DNA of 22,514 nt from Candidatus Baldrarchaeota archaeon (GTDB taxonomy: Archaea > Asgardarchaeota > Baldrarchaeia > Baldrarchaeales > DXJG01): assembly GCA_019056805.1 (NCBI GenBank), contig DXJG01000008.1, positions 1 to 22,514 of the forward strand, given 5' to 3'. The translations under genes were made by a program, and so were the position numbers. How positions within the stretch are numbered: position 1 is the stretch's first letter; the number at the start of each line of letters is the position of its first letter. Of the stretch, positions 1-17,250 are shown in pieces. The notes beneath the pieces are model-generated. The model saw nothing but the letters and a program-made list of their open reading frames with translations. It did no database searches and was not told the origin of the DNA.

Positions 1-116
1 CAGAATATATAGATCTTATAATCACAGAAAATGGCGTAATACCACCACAGGGAGTCATATACATGTTAAAAGAGATCTACGGTTGGCCTACATTCGAAAT
101 AAAACTACTAGAATAA
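1..116 (+). CDS. 3' end (partial) of a second R15P isomerase / eIF2B-family paralog
   Basis: Frame from nt 3 reads [37 protein letters not shown], stop TAA 114-116. This matches the C-terminus of the R15Pi at 1181-2182 ([29 protein letters not shown]). Not in the ORF track. Confidence 0.88.
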   Translation, partial: EYIDLIITENGVIPPQGVIYMLKEIYGWPTFEIKLLE

Positions 117-196
117 TAAAATCTATTTTGTCTTTACACTACTTATATTTCAAGGATTTGTACATTCAAACCAGAACTCCACATTTTAAGATCGAT

Positions 197-208
197 GGAC
201 ATTGTCTA
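197..208. promoter_or_regulatory. Candidate operator GGACATTGTCTA (palindromic core GACAWTGTC) upstream of prs
   Basis: Intergenic palindrome about 35 bp upstream of a TATA-like TTTAAAT (238-244). Its reverse complement matches 15051-15062 at 11/12 and 7963-7974 at 10/12. Confidence 0.4.
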
Positions 209-288
209 TTTCGAAAAAAGAAAATTGACGAGATAATTTTAAATCACAAACTTTCTTACTTTTAATGGAGTGCTTAGGGGGAATACAT

Positions 289-1179
289 ATGATAGATATT
301 GTTCTTGGAGGATCCTCAGCACAAGTACTTACAATAAAAATTGGAAGACAACTAAAAATCCCAACCATTTTACCAGAGATAAAAAAATTTCCAGATGGGG
401 AAAAATACATTAGAATAACAGAAGATGTAAATGGAAAAACAGTAGCAATTATCCAATCTTTCTACCATCAACCTGATGAATTTCTAATCGAATATTTCCT
501 GATAGCAGACACATTAAAAGACCTTGGAGCAAAAAAAGTTATAGGCGTTATTCCCTATTTTGCATACGCCAGACAAGATGAAAGATTCAAACCTGGAGAA
601 GCAATAAGCTTCAAAATAGTTACAAAACTCATAGAAGAAGTTGGAACAGATGAAATTTACACCATAGACACTCATCTACACAGAGTTGAACAACTAAGCG
701 AAATATTTCACATACCAGCCCACAACCTCACAGCAGTCCCGCTTCTTGCCCAATATGTTAAGAAAAACTTTGAATTAAATAATCCAGTCGTCATAGGTCC
801 AGATGAAGAAGCTGAGCAATGGGCAAAAATAGCAGCAAAAGAACTGGAAGCAGAATACGACATTCTTGAGAAAGAAAGATTAGGGCCAAGCGAAGTAAGA
901 ATAAAAACAAGAGAACTAGACGTTACAGGAAAAGATGTACTAATTGTTGACGATATAATTAGTACTGGCGGAACCATGGTAGAAGCTATCAAAATGCTAA
1001 AGGAACATGGAGCAAAAAGTGTAATTGCCGCATGTACACATCCAATACTAGTTCGAAACGCATTAACAAGAATATACCAAGCCGGAGCACTAGCCGTTAT
1101 CGGCACAGACACAGTTCCAAGTTCTATCAGCTTTATTAGTGTAGCACCCATAATAGCAGAAGCTTTGAGGAGGGGGTAA
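289..1179 (+). CDS. prs: Ribose-phosphate pyrophosphokinase (PRPP synthetase) family protein
   Basis: Motifs [13 protein letters not shown], and the PRPP-binding loop [14 protein letters not shown] 289 is preferred to 265 because GGGGG (277-281) precedes it. Confidence 0.92.
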
Positions 1180-1180
1180 A

Positions 1181-2182
1181 ATGCAACTTCCAAAGGAAAT
1201 TTTAGAAATAGCCGAAGGAATAAAAAACATGAGAATCAGAGGAGCAGGAAGAATCGCAAAAGCAGCCGTACAAGCTTTAAAGATAACAGTAGAAAGGTCT
1301 CAAGCAAAGAACCCAGAAGAGCTTATCAAAGAACTTGACTACGTCGCCAAATATCTACTTCACACACGGCCAACAGCCGTATCACTACCTAACGGCATAC
1401 GTTTCGTTATGTACAGAGTTAAAACAGCTTTTAAAAACGGAGCAAACCTGGAAGATCTTAAGATCACTGCAATAGATGCAGCTGACAAATTCATAAAAAA
1501 CTCTGAACTAGCAATTAAAAGAATAGGAGAAATTGGTGCCAGAAGAATAGTTAGCGGAGATACTATACTAACACACTGCAACAGTTCAGCAGCAATATCA
1601 GTAATTATAACCGCCTTCAAACAAGGTAAAGACATCCAAGTTTATGCAACAGAAACAAGACCACTATTCCAAGGAAGAATAACAGCACGTACATTAGCCA
1701 ATGCAGGAGTTCCAGTAACACTTATCGTAGATAGTGCAGTGAGATTCTTCATGAACGAAATAGATAAAGTTGTTGTGGGCGCAGATGCTGTAGCAGCAAA
1801 CGGCGCAGTAGTAAACAAGATAGGTACATCACAAATAGCTCTTGTAGCCCACGAAGCTAGAACCCGTATGTTCGTAGCAGCAGAAACATACAAGTTCAGC
1901 CCTGAAACAATGATAGGAGAACTTGTAAAAATAGAGGAGAGATCCCCGCTAGAAGTTGTTGACGAAGAATTCCTTAGACAAAACCCAAATGTAAAAATAC
2001 GTAACCCATCTTTTGATGTTACTCCTCCAGAATATATAGATCTTATAATCACGGAAAAAGGCGTAATACCGCCACAAGGCGCAGTACTAGTTTTAAAAGA
2101 AGAATTTGGATGGATAATTGGTGAAGAGTTAATTAGAGGAAAAGAAGTTTACTCCACTTACGAATCATGTGGAATAGATTAA
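1181..2182 (+). CDS. Ribose-1,5-bisphosphate isomerase (eIF2B/MtnA/R15Pi family)
   Basis: [13 protein letters not shown], catalytic Cys in THCNS, ETRP, catalytic Asp in VVGADA, NKIGT. Lies directly upstream of RuBisCO. Confidence 0.92.
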
Positions 2183-2208
2183 AAGAAGTGTAAAGGGAGG
2201 AAAAATCC

Positions 2209-15045: not shown

Positions 15046-15050
15046 TTTTC

Positions 15051-15083
15051 TCGACAATGTCCAGGCTCTGAGTAGACTATCCA
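15051..15083 (+). promoter_or_regulatory. Candidate operator TCGACAATGTCC plus second half-site, upstream of rbsD
   Basis: Perfect GACAATGTC palindrome at 15053-15061; second GAC exactly 22 bp downstream (15075). Confidence 0.4.
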
Positions 15084-15142
15084 CAAAGGTCTTGGAAATA
15101 ATCTTAAAAATATGATCAAACAAAAATTATTAGGTGGTTTGT

Positions 15143-15538
15143 ATGAAGAAGAGGGGTATACTTAATCCCGAACTATCTAAGGTTATTGCAAGTTTAGGTC
15201 ATACAGACATGCTTGTAGTATGTGATGCCGGTTTCCCAGTGCCAAAAGAAGTTAAAAGAATAGATCTAATTTTAACCGAAAATATACCTCGATTCTTTGA
15301 CACACTAAAACTTATTTTGGACGAATTAGAGGTTGAAGGCGCTATAGTAGCAAAGGAGACAAGACAAACAAGTCCTCAAGTATATGAAAAAATCAAGGAA
15401 ATGTTAAAAGATATTCCAATAAAGGAAGTCTCACATAAAGAGTTCAAAGAAATTTCAAAACAGGCAAAAGCAGTTGTTAAAACAGGAGAATTCACACCCT
15501 ACGCAAACATAATATTAATTTGCGGAGTCGTCTACTAA
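15143..15538 (+). CDS. rbsD: D-ribose pyranase (RbsD/FucU family)
   Basis: MKKRGILN..LGHTDMLVVCDAGFP (catalytic His), SHKEFK, KTGEFTPYANIIL. ATG 15143 follows AGGTGG. Confidence 0.93.
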   Translation: MKKRGILNPELSKVIASLGHTDMLVVCDAGFPVPKEVKRIDLILTENIPRFFDTLKLILDELEVEGAIVAKETRQTSPQVYEKIKEMLKDIPIKEVSHKEFKEISKQAKAVVKTGEFTPYANIILICGVVY

Positions 15539-15736
15539 TCCTCATCTTTCCTTTTTAAACTCGACAAGAAAACATAGTTTTCAACTCTAAAACGTAGACA
15601 GAGACGCTTATAGATTTTCCATCACTAAATTTGATAATTTCAAGGAAAATTATATAAGGAACGATTAAAAGTATAAATTAATGTTAAAATTAAATCTACC
15701 CCGAGATTTTCATATGAATCAAAAGGAGGGTGAGAA

Positions 15737-16297
15737 TTGGAAAAATTAGAAAGATTTTTTGCAGCCCTTAGCGAAATAGCAGGTCACATAGATAAAGTGA
15801 GAAACGAAATAAACAAAGATGAAGTAGAAAGGTTAGTAAATGCTGTTCTTAATAGTAAAAAGGTTTATTGCTATGGAGCTGGTAGATCAGGTTTTATGGC
15901 AAGATCATTTGCTCAAAGATTAATGCACATAGGAATAGAAGCTTATTTTATTGGAGAAACGATCACCCCAGCATGCGAAACAGGAGATCTCCTTGTATCT
16001 GTTTCTGGAAGTGGAGGAACAACCTCAACAGTAAGTATCGCCTCAAAAGCAAAAGAACTAGGGGTAACTGTAGCAGCCATAACAGCTCATAAAGAAGGAA
16101 AACTAGCCAAAATAGCAGATATAATTGTATATGTACCTGGCAAAACTAAACTGGTAGAACAAGAATCCTATGCACCATTCACTTCGCTATTTGACATAGC
16201 AACATTATCAGTTTTAGATAGCGTAGCAGCTGAAGTCATGGCTAGACGCGGCGTAACAGAAGAACTAATATTAAAACGACACGCAAATGTCGAATAA
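15737..16297 (+). CDS. hxlB: 6-phospho-3-hexuloisomerase (PHI/HxlB, SIS domain)
   Basis: YGAGRSG..ARSFAQRLMHIG, VSGSG, C-terminal RHANVE. TTG start after GGAGGGTGA; TATA TTATATAA near 15650. Confidence 0.87.
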   Translation: MEKLERFFAALSEIAGHIDKVRNEINKDEVERLVNAVLNSKKVYCYGAGRSGFMARSFAQRLMHIGIEAYFIGETITPACETGDLLVSVSGSGGTTSTVSIASKAKELGVTVAAITAHKEGKLAKIADIIVYVPGKTKLVEQESYAPFTSLFDIATLSVLDSVAAEVMARRGVTEELILKRHANVE

Positions 16298-16311
16298 AAG
16301 GAGGAATCAAA

Positions 16312-17250
16312 ATGTTAGACATAATAGGCTTAGGAGAAGTTTGTATAGATTGGATAGTCAAAGTTGAAAGATTCCCCGAACCTGATGAGAAAATCTTCAT
16401 GAAAGGTTCTGGAAAATTTCCAGGAGGCGTTACTGCGAATTTCGTAACAGCATTCGCCAGACTAGGAGGTAAAGCCGCATTTATTGGTGGAGTTGGTAAA
16501 GATGAATACGGAAAATTCATCATAGACACATTCACGAAAGAGGGAGTAGACACAGCTCACACAGTTAGACATGAAGATAGATCTACAGCAGTCAACATAA
16601 TACTTGTGGATAAAAATGGTGAAAGAGTAATAGTTCAAGACCCAAATCTAAGAGACAATGTCCCAGAACCAGAATACTTCGATCGAAAAGATGTACAAGA
16701 ATACATAGCCTCCTCCAAGGCACTACACACCACCGCTATCAAAGTTAAAACTTCAGAGAAGGCATTTAAAATAGCTAAAGAACATGGACTTCTAACATCT
16801 TTTGATCTTGAAAAACACGTAGCCGAATATGGATTGAACCAGCTTAAAACCATCTTAAAGTTAACAGACATATTAATGCCAAATAAACTTGGTATACGCG
16901 CTTTAACAGGAGAAGAAGACTTTGAAAAAGCAGCTAGAAAACTTATGGAACTAGGTCCAAAAGTCGTAGTCATAACATTAGGTTCCAAAGGTAACATGGT
17001 TGTAACTGAAAGTGACGTTATTACTGCTCCAGCATTTCAAGTAGAGGTTGTAGACACAACTGGTGCAGGTGATGCCTTTAACGCCGCTTTCCTATACTCT
17101 GTAATAGTGAAAAAATGGGATTACCAAAAAGCTTCAACATTTGCCAATGCTGTTGCAGCCTTAAAATGTACAAAAATAGGAGCACAAACAGGCCTACCAA
17201 AACTTGAAGAAGTCAATGAATTCCTAAAAAACAAAGGCGTCACACTTTAA
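16312..17250 (+). CDS. PfkB/ribokinase-family kinase (ribokinase, ribose-1-phosphate kinase or nucleoside kinase candidate)
   Basis: GLGEVCIDWIVKVERFPEPDEK, PGGVTAN, IGGVGKD, DTTGAGDAFN. GGAGG SD. Confidence 0.88.
   Translation: MLDIIGLGEVCIDWIVKVERFPEPDEKIFMKGSGKFPGGVTANFVTAFARLGGKAAFIGGVGKDEYGKFIIDTFTKEGVDTAHTVRHEDRSTAVNIILVDKNGERVIVQDPNLRDNVPEPEYFDRKDVQEYIASSKALHTTAIKVKTSEKAFKIAKEHGLLTSFDLEKHVAEYGLNQLKTILKLTDILMPNKLGIRALTGEEDFEKAARKLMELGPKVVVITLGSKGNMVVTESDVITAPAFQVEVVDTTGAGDAFNAAFLYSVIVKKWDYQKASTFANAVAALKCTKIGAQTGLPKLEEVNEFLKNKGVTL

What the first reader, a model, noticed from the sequence alone, without database searches (positions are those of the whole stretch)
1..17250. Candidate free-sugar-fed RuBisCO shunt: sugar/polyol import and pentose funnel clustered with Prs-R15Pi-RuBisCO
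Seen: one 17-kb block carries an ABC sugar importer, polyol-type dehydrogenase, FGGY kinase, two PfkB kinases, ribose pyranase, PHI, an FSA-like aldolase, Prs, two R15Pi paralogs and an intact form III RuBisCO. No AMP phosphorylase, nucleoside phosphorylase or phosphoribulokinase is visible in the window. Established: characterised archaeal form III RuBisCOs are fed by nucleotides/nucleosides (AMP pathway and pentose bisphosphate pathway of Thermococcus) or by PRK (RHP pathway of methanogens). Inference: here imported free ribose or pentitols go to R5P/Ru5P, then via PRPP or R15P to RuBP and 2 x 3-PGA. That would be heterotrophic sugar catabolism with net CO2 incorporation, replacing the non-oxidative pentose phosphate route.
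Basis: partly seen in the sequence, partly recalled or inferred. Interest (0 to 1): 0.82.

Follow-up and report, generated by a model that had tools for sequence, protein, structure and literature searches.

The report
Ribose-uptake genes fused to RuBisCO shunt
In this heat-vent Asgard archaeon the genes for taking up and phosphorylating ribose and other sugars sit in one block with a PRPP synthase, two ribose-bisphosphate isomerase copies and the genome's only true RuBisCO. This suggests that free ribose, not only nucleotides, is broken down through a CO2-adding RuBisCO bypass, though the step from PRPP to ribose-1,5-bisphosphate is still unproven.

Summary
The window is a whole contig of a Baldrarchaeia (Asgard) MAG. 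It carries Prs, a catalytically intact R15P isomerase, an intact form III RuBisCO, an AsnC regulator, FGGY kinase, TAL/FSA, a CUT1 sugar ABC importer, a polyol-type Zn-dehydrogenase, two PfkB kinases, RbsD and PHI. Bases 1-116 are the tail of a second R15Pi paralogue that continues on contig C15 and lacks both catalytic residues.

For it:
- R15PiA-Prs-R15PiB-RbcL-AsnC-PfkB1-RbsD is conserved in Baldrarchaeia.
- In sister lineages it runs straight into a bona fide ribokinase and an RbsA/RbsC/RbsB-type importer.
- No PRK, transketolase, convincing Rpe or phosphoketolase was found (genome 91% complete).

Against it:
- AMP phosphorylase, APRT and four nucleoside phosphorylases lie elsewhere in the genome, so nucleotides can feed the same RuBisCO.
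- A PRPP-to-R15P route has already been proposed in the literature.
- The FGGY-to-ZnADH block is a 10-kb indel.
- This genome lacks a clear ribokinase and RbsABC.

The four-gene core also occurs in Bathyarchaeia; the scan noted it there before (e1-4921412). Verdict: a new variant of the archaeal pentose-bisphosphate/AMP shunt with a free-ribose entry. It rests on gene context only.

The parts
1..116 (+). 3' end (38 codons plus stop) of R15Pi-A, a ribose-1,5-bisphosphate-isomerase paralogue. Its body lies on contig C15:854->1. It lacks the catalytic Cys (Gly instead) and Asp (Glu instead).
   Evidence: contig join; THGFS / GAEA against P. horikoshii R15Pi; intact gene in L080 and L081
265..1179 (+). 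Prs, ribose-phosphate diphosphokinase (PRPP synthase), archaeal type. It ends 1 nt before R15Pi-B starts.
   Evidence: NF002095 348 bits, cut-off 296; 60-65% identical to stand-alone archaeal Prs
1181..2182 (+). R15Pi-B, ribose-1,5-bisphosphate isomerase with intact catalytic Cys and Asp
   Evidence: TIGR00511 440 bits, cut-off 314; 408 bits to PDB 5yfj; THCNS, GADA
2209..3513 (+). RbcL, form III RuBisCO large subunit; the only homologue in the genome with a full catalytic set
   Evidence: 377 bits to P. horikoshii 2cwx; all motifs; the second homologue on C4 is a form IV RLP
3572..4039 (+). Lrp/AsnC-family regulator, conserved directly after rbcL in Baldrarchaeia
4041..14030 (.). About 10-kb indel block relative to sister lineages L080 and L008. 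It holds the genes from FGGY to ZnADH. It is present in L081 as far as that locus extends (to about window position 11205).
   Evidence: (blastn breakpoints)
4063..5613 (-). FGGY pentulose kinase (xylulokinase-like), overlapping the TAL/FSA gene by 16 nt
   Evidence: XylB 425 bits, cut-off 380
5598..6257 (-). Short transaldolase / fructose-6-phosphate-aldolase family protein; the only one in the genome
   Evidence: (TIGR00875 212 bits, below the 246 cut-off)
6434..7885 (+). 483-aa protein of unknown function. Only weak leads point to Ig-like or BNR cell-surface proteins.
   Evidence: no family above cut-off
8090..12832 (+). CUT1-type sugar ABC importer: SBP 8090-9694, permeases 9898-10809 and 10823-11689, MalK/UgpC-like ATPase 11738-12832. 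Substrate unknown.
   Evidence: distant to sugar, trehalose/maltose and sorbitol SBPs
12837..13865 (-). Zn-dependent medium-chain dehydrogenase of the polyol/threonine dehydrogenase group
   Evidence: threonine, sorbitol, L-arabinitol and xylitol dehydrogenases; 140-180 bits
14050..15045 (+). PfkB1, a PfkB sugar kinase of a widespread archaeal orthogroup (KDG-kinase / IolC / fructokinase-like). Substrate unknown. Conserved next to rbcL-asnC in Baldrarchaeia.
15134..15538 (+). RbsD, D-ribose pyranase
   Evidence: NF008761 174 bits, cut-off 93; found in only 3 of 301 sampled Asgard genomes
15737..16297 (+). PHI, 6-phospho-3-hexuloisomerase (RuMP pathway). Absent at this place in L080.
   Evidence: (TIGR03127 190 bits, cut-off 160)
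16312..17250 (+). PfkB2, a ribokinase-like or R1P-kinase-like PfkB kinase. It is below all equivalog cut-offs and is not the orthologue of the bona fide ribokinase found at this place in L080 and G002 (37% identity).

Best explanation
The block is a sugar-catabolic island built around a conserved module, R15PiA-Prs-R15PiB-RbcL-AsnC-PfkB1-RbsD. This module routes the ribose skeleton into glycolysis through RuBisCO.

Proposed flow:
1. Imported ribose is opened to the furanose form by RbsD. (Other sugars or pentitols brought in by the CUT1 importer, ZnADH and FGGY kinase may possibly join here.)
2. Ribose is phosphorylated to ribose-5-phosphate by a PfkB kinase. This is a bona fide ribokinase in sister lineages and probably PfkB2 or PfkB1 here.
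3. Prs activates ribose-5-phosphate to PRPP.
4. PRPP is converted to ribose-1,5-bisphosphate.
5. R15Pi-B isomerises that to RuBP.
6. The form III RuBisCO carboxylates RuBP to two 3-phosphoglycerate.

For step 4, the route that needs only characterised enzymes is the adenine cycle: PRPP + adenine -> AMP (APRT), then AMP + Pi -> adenine + R15P (AMP phosphorylase). Both genes are elsewhere in the genome. Heat-driven or Nudix-type dephosphorylation of PRPP is an alternative.

Shown: gene identities, catalytic residues, operon-like spacing, and conserved synteny with ribose genes. Also shown: no PRK, transketolase, Rpe or phosphoketolase was detected.

Inferred: the flux, the kinase substrates, the PRPP-to-R15P step, the role of R15Pi-A, and any link of the 10-kb polyol/FGGY/FSA block to RuBisCO.
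For: 1. Tight core. Prs stops 1 nt before R15Pi-B starts, and RbcL follows after 26 nt. The same four genes in the same order, with 54-70% identity for each protein, recur in Bathyarchaeota-BA1-like and other contigs L100, L101 and L102 (L102 lacks the adjacent RbcL).

2. Ribose link. L080 reads R15PiA-Prs-R15PiB-RbcL-AsnC-PfkB1-RbsD-ribokinase-RbsA(double ABC)-RbsC-RbsB-like, all on one strand. The ribokinase scores 352 bits (cut-off 300) and the SBP is closest to RbsB. G002/L008 has the same order.

3. RbsD was found in 3 of 301 sampled Asgard genomes. In two of them it lies beside RuBisCO. Within the class, RbsD, window-type R15Pi-B and true RbcL occur together in G000 and G002 and in none of G001, G003 or G004.

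4. RbcL and R15Pi-B keep all catalytic residues. The other RbcL homologue is a form IV RLP.

5. No PRK, Transketolase_N or XFP was found, and Rpe gave only marginal partial hits of about 20 bits. RpiA and a Fae-HPS fusion are present.

6. The adenine cycle is encoded: APRT 293 bits (cut-off 184) and AMP phosphorylase 721 bits (cut-off 535).

7. PRPP->(AMP)->R15P->RuBP has been proposed before on genomic and biochemical grounds (PMC5113843; bioRxiv 10.1101/2019.12.22.886556; PMC7300363).
Against: - There is no biochemical or expression evidence.
- This genome itself has no PfkB above the ribokinase cut-off (best 204 and 194 bits) and no RbsABC next to the cluster. The strongest ribose evidence therefore comes from sister lineages that are about 88-91% identical, which is little independent sampling.
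- AMP phosphorylase, four nucleoside phosphorylases and a third intact R15Pi lie elsewhere. One phosphorylase is next to that R15Pi, on C9 at about 605-607 kb. They give a complete conventional nucleotide/nucleoside feed for the same RuBisCO.
- Prs may be in the operon simply to make PRPP for nucleotide synthesis from salvaged ribose.
- Outside Baldrarchaeia, the four-gene core is not flanked by ribose genes.
- PfkB1 orthologues elsewhere stand in housekeeping contexts.
- The genome is 91% complete, so the absences are provisional.
Confidence: 0.5

Rival explanations
1. This is a conventional nucleotide/nucleoside-fed shunt. RuBisCO and R15Pi-B serve the known AMP (NMP) shunt and pentose-bisphosphate pathway. 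They are fed by AMP phosphorylase and by nucleoside phosphorylase plus an R1P kinase. The neighbouring sugar genes belong to separate pathways: ribose salvage to PRPP for nucleotide synthesis, and polyol or hexose handling via FGGY, FSA and PHI. They are merely co-located on an accessory carbohydrate island.
For: - AMP phosphorylase is well above cut-off.
- Four PNP_UDP_1 phosphorylases are present, one divergent from a third intact R15Pi.
- There are five PfkB paralogues that could include an R1P kinase.
- In halophiles, 'rbsK' genes next to R15Pi proved to be R1P kinases (PMC9700705).
- The FGGY-to-ZnADH block is an indel.
- The four-gene core in L100 and L101 has no ribose genes nearby.
Against: - This reading does not explain why Prs is translationally coupled to R15Pi-B in at least three lineages.
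- It does not explain why RbsD, a true ribokinase and an RbsABC-type importer are collinear with rbcL in Baldrarchaeia while RbsD is otherwise nearly unseen in Asgard genomes.
- AMP phosphorylase is kept in G001 and G003, where no true RuBisCO was found, so it is not tied to this module.
Confidence: 0.25
2. Free ribose feeds RuBisCO without PRPP. The route is ribose -> R5P (ribokinase) -> R1P (a phosphopentomutase of the PGM/PMM family) -> R15P (PfkB1 or PfkB2 acting as an R1P kinase) -> RuBP -> 3-PGA. Prs only branches R5P off to nucleotide synthesis.
For: - Two PfkB kinases sit in the module. PfkB2 scores 159 and 140 bits on the ATP- and ADP-dependent R1P-kinase models.
- One PGM/PMM-family gene is present (C9:382977).
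- The sequence R5P->R1P->R15P is documented for E. coli, and R1P kinases are PfkB proteins (PMC9700705).
- This route costs less ATP than the PRPP route (my own stoichiometric reasoning).
Against: - All R1P-kinase scores are far below the cut-offs of 330 and 500.
- The PGM/PMM gene is not linked to the cluster and its substrate is unknown.
- The route leaves the conserved R15PiA-Prs-R15PiB coupling unexplained.
Confidence: 0.15
3. A non-homologous phosphoribulokinase is at work. PfkB1, like PfkB-type phosphofructokinases, or the FGGY kinase phosphorylates a pentulose phosphate directly to RuBP (Ru5P at C1, or Ru1P at C5). Sugars would then reach RuBisCO without R15P.
For: - Only context supports this. 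RbcL proteins 66-68% identical to the window's lie directly beside FGGY kinases, without R15Pi, in Hodarchaeota L009 and in L012.
- PfkB1 is conserved next to rbcL-asnC.
- No PRK-family gene was found.
Against: - No known PfkB or FGGY enzyme has this activity.
- An intact R15Pi-B stands directly upstream of rbcL here, which argues that R15P is the precursor.
- PfkB1 orthologues elsewhere stand in unrelated contexts.
Confidence: 0.05

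Closest known systems
Pentose bisphosphate pathway / NMP (AMP) shunt of Thermococcus kodakarensis (Sato 2007; Aono 2012, 2015; summarised in PMC9700705)
   Same: It uses R15P isomerase with Cys/Asp catalysis and a form III RuBisCO that converts RuBP + CO2 to two 3-PGA. 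It serves as the exit for ribose carbon in an archaeon without a non-oxidative pentose phosphate pathway. AMP phosphorylase and nucleoside phosphorylases are also encoded in this genome.
   Different: Here the isomerase and RuBisCO are in one operon-like unit with Prs and a catalytically altered second isomerase paralogue. They are flanked by RbsD, PfkB kinases and sugar importers (in relatives, ribokinase plus RbsABC). This implies free ribose rather than nucleosides or nucleotides as input. AMP phosphorylase is unlinked.
PRPP -> R15P -> RuBP proposals: Finn & Tabita 2004 for methanogens (as cited in PMC5113843); the Nudix/APRT versions for heterotrophic marine Thaumarchaeota (bioRxiv 10.1101/2019.12.22.886556; PMC7300363)
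   Same: Prs makes PRPP. PRPP is then turned into R15P, either abiotically at high temperature, by a Nudix hydrolase, or via APRT plus AMP phosphorylase. R15P then feeds R15Pi and RuBisCO.
   Different: Those proposals rest on gene presence or on cell extracts. Here Prs is physically coupled to R15Pi and RuBisCO. The source of R5P is suggested to be imported ribose rather than the pentose phosphate pathway or gluconeogenesis.
Bathyarchaeota cluster with tandem R15P isomerase genes one gene upstream of RuBisCO (bioRxiv 10.64898/2026.09.21.753380; earlier scan note e1-4921412)
   Same: It has the same four-gene core, R15PiA(Gly/Glu)-Prs-R15PiB-RbcL. I re-found it in L100 and L101, and in L102 without the adjacent RbcL.
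   Different: In the published MAG the RuBisCO is form I-alpha. No ribose genes flank the Bathyarchaeia clusters I examined. The Baldrarchaeia version adds AsnC, PfkB1, RbsD and transporters.
Non-carboxylating pentose bisphosphate pathway of halophilic archaea (PMC9700705)
   Same: A PfkB 'ribokinase-like' gene is in an operon with R15P isomerase.
   Different: There the PfkB is an ATP-dependent R1P kinase fed by a nucleoside phosphorylase, and RuBisCO is absent. Here RuBisCO is present, and one flanking PfkB in relatives passes the true ribokinase model.
Bacterial rbs operon (RbsD, RbsA, RbsC, RbsB, RbsK)
   Same: RbsD is above cut-off in the window. In L080 and G002 there is also a ribokinase above cut-off, a double-ABC ATPase, a BPD_transp_2 permease and a Peripla_BP-type binding protein.
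   Different: The product R5P would normally enter the pentose phosphate pathway. Transketolase and Rpe were not found here, and the operon is joined to Prs-R15Pi-RuBisCO. The window itself has lost or never had RbsK and RbsABC, and has a CUT1 importer instead.
Oxidative D-ribose degradation in Haloarcula (Johnsen et al. 2020, J Bacteriol; recalled from memory, not checked here)
   Same: It is the only described route for free-ribose catabolism in Archaea that I know of.
   Different: It is a non-phosphorylative oxidation to 2-oxoglutarate. It shares no enzymes with this cluster.

Membership tests
Archaeal AMP shunt / pentose bisphosphate pathway | Form III RuBisCO with a complete catalytic residue set | tested here: met
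   Alignment to 2cwx shows all motifs. The form III equivalog score is 459, below the 497 cut-off; the general RbcL model gives 440, cut-off 438.
Archaeal AMP shunt / pentose bisphosphate pathway | R15P isomerase with catalytic Cys133 and Asp202 (T. kodakarensis numbering) | tested here: met
   R15Pi-B has THCNS and GADA; TIGR00511 440 bits, cut-off 314. R15Pi-A fails this test: it has Gly and Glu.
Archaeal AMP shunt / pentose bisphosphate pathway | AMP (NMP) phosphorylase | tested here: met
   It is present in the genome at C9:238311-239804, 721 bits, cut-off 535. It is not in or next to the cluster.
Archaeal AMP shunt / pentose bisphosphate pathway | Nucleoside phosphorylase plus ribose-1-phosphate kinase | tested here: inconclusive
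   Four PNP_UDP_1 genes are present. No PfkB reaches an R1P-kinase cut-off; the best scores are 178 and 159 bits against 330.
Archaeal AMP shunt / pentose bisphosphate pathway | Measured conversion of R15P to RuBP to 3-PGA | not testable with these tools
   This needs enzyme assays.
PRK-dependent routes (Calvin cycle, reductive hexulose phosphate pathway) | Phosphoribulokinase (PF00485) | tested here: not met
   No match in G000, which is 91% complete; 35 candidates were scored.
Bacterial-type ribose utilisation (rbs) system | RbsD ribose pyranase | tested here: met
   NF008761 174 bits, cut-off 93.
Bacterial-type ribose utilisation (rbs) system | Ribokinase above the equivalog cut-off | tested here: not met
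   The window's PfkB2 scores 194 and C9:418095 scores 204, both below 299.65. The test is met in relatives: L080 352 and G002:C102 351.5.
Bacterial-type ribose utilisation (rbs) system | CUT2 importer RbsA/RbsC/RbsB | tested here: not met
   It is absent beside the window cluster, where a CUT1 system stands instead. In L080 there is a double ABC_tran, a BPD_transp_2 permease and a Peripla_BP protein whose best hit is RbsB at 182 bits, below the 337 cut-off.
PRPP-fed RuBP synthesis (Finn & Tabita-type, Nudix or APRT variants) | Ribose-phosphate diphosphokinase | tested here: met
   NF002095 348 bits, cut-off 296. It is coupled to R15Pi-B.
PRPP-fed RuBP synthesis (Finn & Tabita-type, Nudix or APRT variants) | A step converting PRPP to R15P | tested here: inconclusive
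   APRT (293 bits, cut-off 184) plus AMP phosphorylase are encoded. Two Nudix genes lie elsewhere. No dedicated gene is identified in the cluster. R15Pi-A is an untested candidate.
Non-oxidative pentose phosphate pathway | Transketolase and ribulose-phosphate 3-epimerase | tested here: not met
   Transketolase_N gave no match. Rpe gave only partial hits of about 20 bits inside unrelated 300-400-aa ORFs. RpiA and one TAL/FSA are present.

The most novel reading that the evidence does not exclude
The conserved trio R15PiA(Gly/Glu)-Prs-R15PiB is a self-contained enzymatic converter of ribose-5-phosphate to RuBP. In this reading the altered paralogue R15Pi-A supplies or controls the long-missing PRPP-to-R15P (or PRPP-to-RuBP) step. 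It keeps the bisphosphate-binding Arg and Lys residues but has Gly for the catalytic Cys and Glu for the catalytic Asp. Baldrarchaeia, and some Bathyarchaeia, would then run an AMP-phosphorylase-independent, ribose-fed RuBisCO glycolytic bypass.
Probability: 0.17. Interest if true: 0.85.

Novelty: new variant of a known kind. Interest (0 to 1): 0.6.

Why it matters
Archaeal form III RuBisCO has only been shown to dispose of the ribose of nucleotides and nucleosides. Whether PRPP is a physiological precursor of RuBP has been open since 2004.

This cluster gives the clearest gene-context argument so far that it is. Prs is translationally coupled to R15P isomerase and RuBisCO in at least two archaeal phyla. 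In Baldrarchaeia the unit is welded to a ribose pyranase, a ribokinase and a ribose importer.

If the reading is right, free ribose from decaying biomass in hot sediments would be fermented with incorporation of one CO2 per pentose. This would happen in an organism that shows no pentose phosphate pathway.

The cluster also singles out a conserved, catalytically altered isomerase paralogue as a concrete candidate for the missing step or its regulation. All of this can be tested with a handful of recombinant proteins.

Tried and rejected
- Complex prediction of Prs with R15Pi-A (alignments A2 and A1) returned no verdict, score 0.00. It is not used as evidence either way.
- Expression: the look-up of sequencing runs listed no RNA holder for window 200-10000 or for rbcL. 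None was listed, which says nothing about expression.
- Rfam gathering scan of the window: no RNA family, for example no riboswitch.
- The ORF at 2-265 in frame 2 is not a gene. The real coding tail is in frame 3, bases 3-113.
- I considered the metallo-beta-lactamase-fold gene upstream (C15:1068-2237) as a PhnP-like phosphodiesterase that makes R15P from 5-phosphoribosyl-1,2-cyclic phosphate. It has only weak Lactamase_B hits, has no PDB sequence relative, and is absent from the Bathyarchaeia clusters. The idea is left as speculation.
- I tried to assign PfkB1 and PfkB2 by NCBIfam, PDB and gene context. Neither could be assigned.
- I tested whether homologues of the window Prs in other phyla sit with R15Pi and RbcL. 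Three stand-alone cases (L082, L083, L084) do not, so the Prs is an ordinary archaeal Prs recruited into the module.
- I checked whether the FGGY and ZnADH genes near RbcL or the module in L012 and L102 are orthologues of the window's. They are only 26-38% identical, so the recurrence is at family level only.
- A Ser/Glu variant of the isomerase family (P0193) is not next to Prs, so only the Gly/Glu type is tied to Prs.
- The third Asgard RbsD (G058) lies on a 7-kb contig with a PfkB and no visible RbcL. This is uninformative.

Full report
**What the window is.** The 22,514-base window is an entire contig (C16) of a 1.92-Mb, 18-contig genome that is 91% complete. The closest public loci are labelled Candidatus Baldrarchaeota/Baldrarchaeia, which are Asgard archaea. 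This agrees with earlier scan notes on the same genome.

**Checking the observation.**
- Prs, 265-1179: 348 bits, cut-off 296.
- R15P isomerase, 1181-2182: 440 bits, cut-off 314.
- RbcL, 2209-3513.
- An Lrp/AsnC regulator.
- An FGGY kinase on the minus strand: XylB model 425 bits, cut-off 380. It overlaps a short TAL/FSA gene by 16 nt.
- A 483-aa protein of no known family.
- A CUT1 ABC importer (binding protein, two permeases, MalK/UgpC-like ATPase).
- A Zn-dependent polyol-type dehydrogenase. Its nearest solved relatives are threonine, sorbitol, L-arabinitol and xylitol dehydrogenases.
- PfkB1.
- RbsD: 174 bits, cut-off 93.
- PHI: 190 bits, cut-off 160.
- PfkB2.

RbcL aligns over its whole length to the Pyrococcus horikoshii form III enzyme (377 bits). 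It keeps every catalytic motif. It falls just below NCBI's form III equivalog cut-off (459 against 497), so it is a somewhat divergent form III. R15Pi-B keeps the catalytic Cys and Asp. The roles of Cys133 and Asp202 are taken from PMC6423476.

**The second isomerase paralogue.** A search with R15Pi-B matched window bases 3-125 and also the start of contig C15. Reverse-complemented C15 and C16 overlap by 7 nt, and the protein reads through the junction. Metagenome contigs L080 and L081 carry the intact gene at exactly this place. This R15Pi-A scores above the R15Pi cut-off (335 bits, cut-off 314). However, it has Gly in place of the catalytic Cys and Glu in place of the catalytic Asp. It keeps the basic residues that bind the bisphosphate ligand (invariant columns, mapped onto the residues named in PMC6423476).

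**What lies upstream.** Upstream of R15Pi-A is a divergent metallo-beta-lactamase-fold gene, followed by a giant ORF. It is not AMP phosphorylase.

Present:
- AMP phosphorylase: C9:238311-239804, 721 bits, cut-off 535.
- Adenine phosphoribosyltransferase: 293 bits, cut-off 184.
- Two Nudix genes.
- Four PNP_UDP_1 nucleoside phosphorylases. One is divergent from a third, intact R15Pi on C9.
- MtnA, RpiA and a Fae-HPS fusion.

Not found:
- PRK.
- Transketolase_N.
- Phosphoketolase.
- A convincing ribulose-phosphate 3-epimerase.

The only other RbcL homologue (C4) lacks several catalytic residues. It is a form IV RuBisCO-like protein in an aminotransferase-aminotransferase-FGGY-RLP operon. The window therefore holds the organism's only true RuBisCO, its only TAL/FSA and its only PHI above cut-off.

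**Synteny within Baldrarchaeia.**
- L081 (Guaymas Basin sediment) is collinear with the window at 91% DNA identity.
- L080 and G002/L008 share window bases 3-4040 and 14031-15538 but lack the roughly 10 kb in between, from FGGY to ZnADH.
- After RbsD, L080 and G002 carry a ribokinase above the equivalog cut-off (352 bits, cut-off 300), a double-domain ABC ATPase, a BPD_transp_2 permease and a Peripla_BP binding protein closest to RbsB. All are on the same strand as rbcL.
- The window instead has PHI and a different PfkB, which is 37% identical to that ribokinase and scores 194 bits on the ribokinase model.
- The conserved Baldrarchaeia module is therefore R15PiA-Prs-R15PiB-RbcL-AsnC-PfkB1-RbsD, with variable transporter and kinase ends.
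- Within the class, the module is accessory. True RbcL, window-type R15Pi-B and RbsD are found in G000 and G002 and in none of G001, G003 or G004. AMP phosphorylase is found in four of the five genomes.
- RbsD was found in only 3 of 301 sampled Asgard genomes.

**The core beyond Baldrarchaeia.** The R15PiA(Gly/Glu)-Prs-R15PiB(-RbcL) core recurs with the same order and coupling. Protein identities are 54-70%. It is seen in a Bathyarchaeota-BA1-like contig and two other metagenome contigs. This matches an earlier scan note on a Bathyarchaeia window (e1-4921412). It also matches a 2026 preprint that saw tandem R15Pi genes one gene upstream of a form I-alpha RuBisCO. Those clusters are not flanked by ribose genes. 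The Prs itself is an ordinary archaeal Prs: 60-65% identical homologues stand alone in other archaea. A divergent Prs-like gene on C9 is the only Prs-like gene found in the other Baldrarchaeia.

**How it most likely works.** Gene content and context best fit a ribose-fed version of the pentose-bisphosphate/AMP shunt:
- ribose -> (RbsD, PfkB kinase) R5P
- R5P -> (Prs) PRPP
- PRPP -> R15P
- R15P -> (R15Pi-B) RuBP
- RuBP -> (RbcL) two 3-PGA

The PRPP-to-R15P step has no assigned gene in the cluster. With characterised enzymes it can run as an adenine cycle through APRT and AMP phosphorylase, both of which are encoded. Abiotic or Nudix-type dephosphorylation has also been proposed in the literature.

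In this reading AMP phosphorylase is part of the free-ribose route rather than replaced by it. The same RuBisCO can also be fed by nucleotides and nucleosides.

The 10-kb FGGY/FSA/ABC/ZnADH block may bring in pentitols or pentuloses. With no Rpe found and no substrate assignments, its connection to RuBisCO is conjecture. FGGY and Zn-dehydrogenase genes near the same RbcL clade or module in L012 and L102 are only distant family members.

**Rivals.**
- A purely conventional nucleotide-fed shunt with coincidental sugar neighbours.
- A PRPP-independent route via phosphopentomutase and an R1P-kinase activity of PfkB1 or PfkB2. The halophile precedent (PMC9700705) shows that 'rbsK' next to R15Pi can be an R1P kinase.
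- A non-homologous PRK, which is much less likely.

None of these can be settled without assays.

**What led nowhere.** No RNA run was listed, the complex prediction gave no verdict, and no RNA family was found.

**Novelty and score.** The chemistry downstream of R15P is known, and the idea that PRPP feeds RuBisCO is published as a hypothesis. Three things are new:
- the operon-level coupling of Prs with two isomerase paralogues and RuBisCO;
- its fusion to a ribose uptake and kinase system in Asgard archaea;
- the conserved Gly/Glu isomerase paralogue.

I class it as a new variant of a known kind, of moderate to high interest. It rests entirely on gene context.

Noticed in passing
G000:C4:2466-7891 (locus L050); also L009:5515-8497: An operon of two aminotransferases, an FGGY kinase and a form IV RuBisCO-like protein (MtnW-like, 362 bits, below the 409 cut-off; several catalytic residues replaced). 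It is conserved in four of the five Baldrarchaeia genomes. A similar RLP-FGGY pair occurs in a Hodarchaeota MAG. Function unknown.
   Followed up: partly
L009:9983-16028 and L012:2837-11296: RbcL proteins 66-68% identical to the window's, with form III-like scores, lie directly beside FGGY kinases, aminotransferases and dehydrogenases. No R15P isomerase is within 10 kb. This hints at another, undescribed way of feeding or using this RuBisCO clade.
   Followed up: partly
window 17530-20286: A sulfur/selenium cluster: a YedE/FdhT-like transporter split into two overlapping ORFs (17530-18054 and 18051-18647), a YedF/TusA-like protein (18632-18883) and a SelD-related protein (18880-20286; NF038049 542 bits).
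   Followed up: no
G000:C9:605332-607065 (locus L053): A third, catalytically typical R15P isomerase (388 bits) is divergently paired with a PNP_UDP_1 nucleoside phosphorylase. This looks like a conventional nucleoside entry to the same RuBisCO.
   Followed up: partly
G001 and G003: AMP phosphorylase is retained in Baldrarchaeia genomes in which no true RuBisCO was found (G001 is 96% complete, G003 is 84%). It is an orphan AMP phosphorylase.
   Followed up: no
G000:C9:397779-398777 (locus L099:1780-2778): A divergent Prs-like protein (95 bits, below the 113 cut-off). It is the only Prs-like gene found in G001, G003 and G004, so it is presumably their PRPP synthase despite its poor family score.
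   Followed up: no
proteins P0139-P0207: A third motif class occurs among R15Pi homologues: CYG[YH]ST ... TGADA. The Cys sits two positions upstream of the usual place and the Asp is kept. It is abundant in metagenomes and I know of no characterisation.
   Followed up: no
window 6434-7885: A 483-aa protein with no family above cut-off. Only weak leads point to Ig-like or BNR surface proteins. It is conserved in L081 between the FSA gene and the ABC binding protein.
   Followed up: partly
window 1-7 and G000:C15:1-7: Contigs C15 (reverse-complemented) and C16 are adjacent in the genome. They overlap by 7 nt and split the R15Pi-A gene between them.
   Followed up: yes
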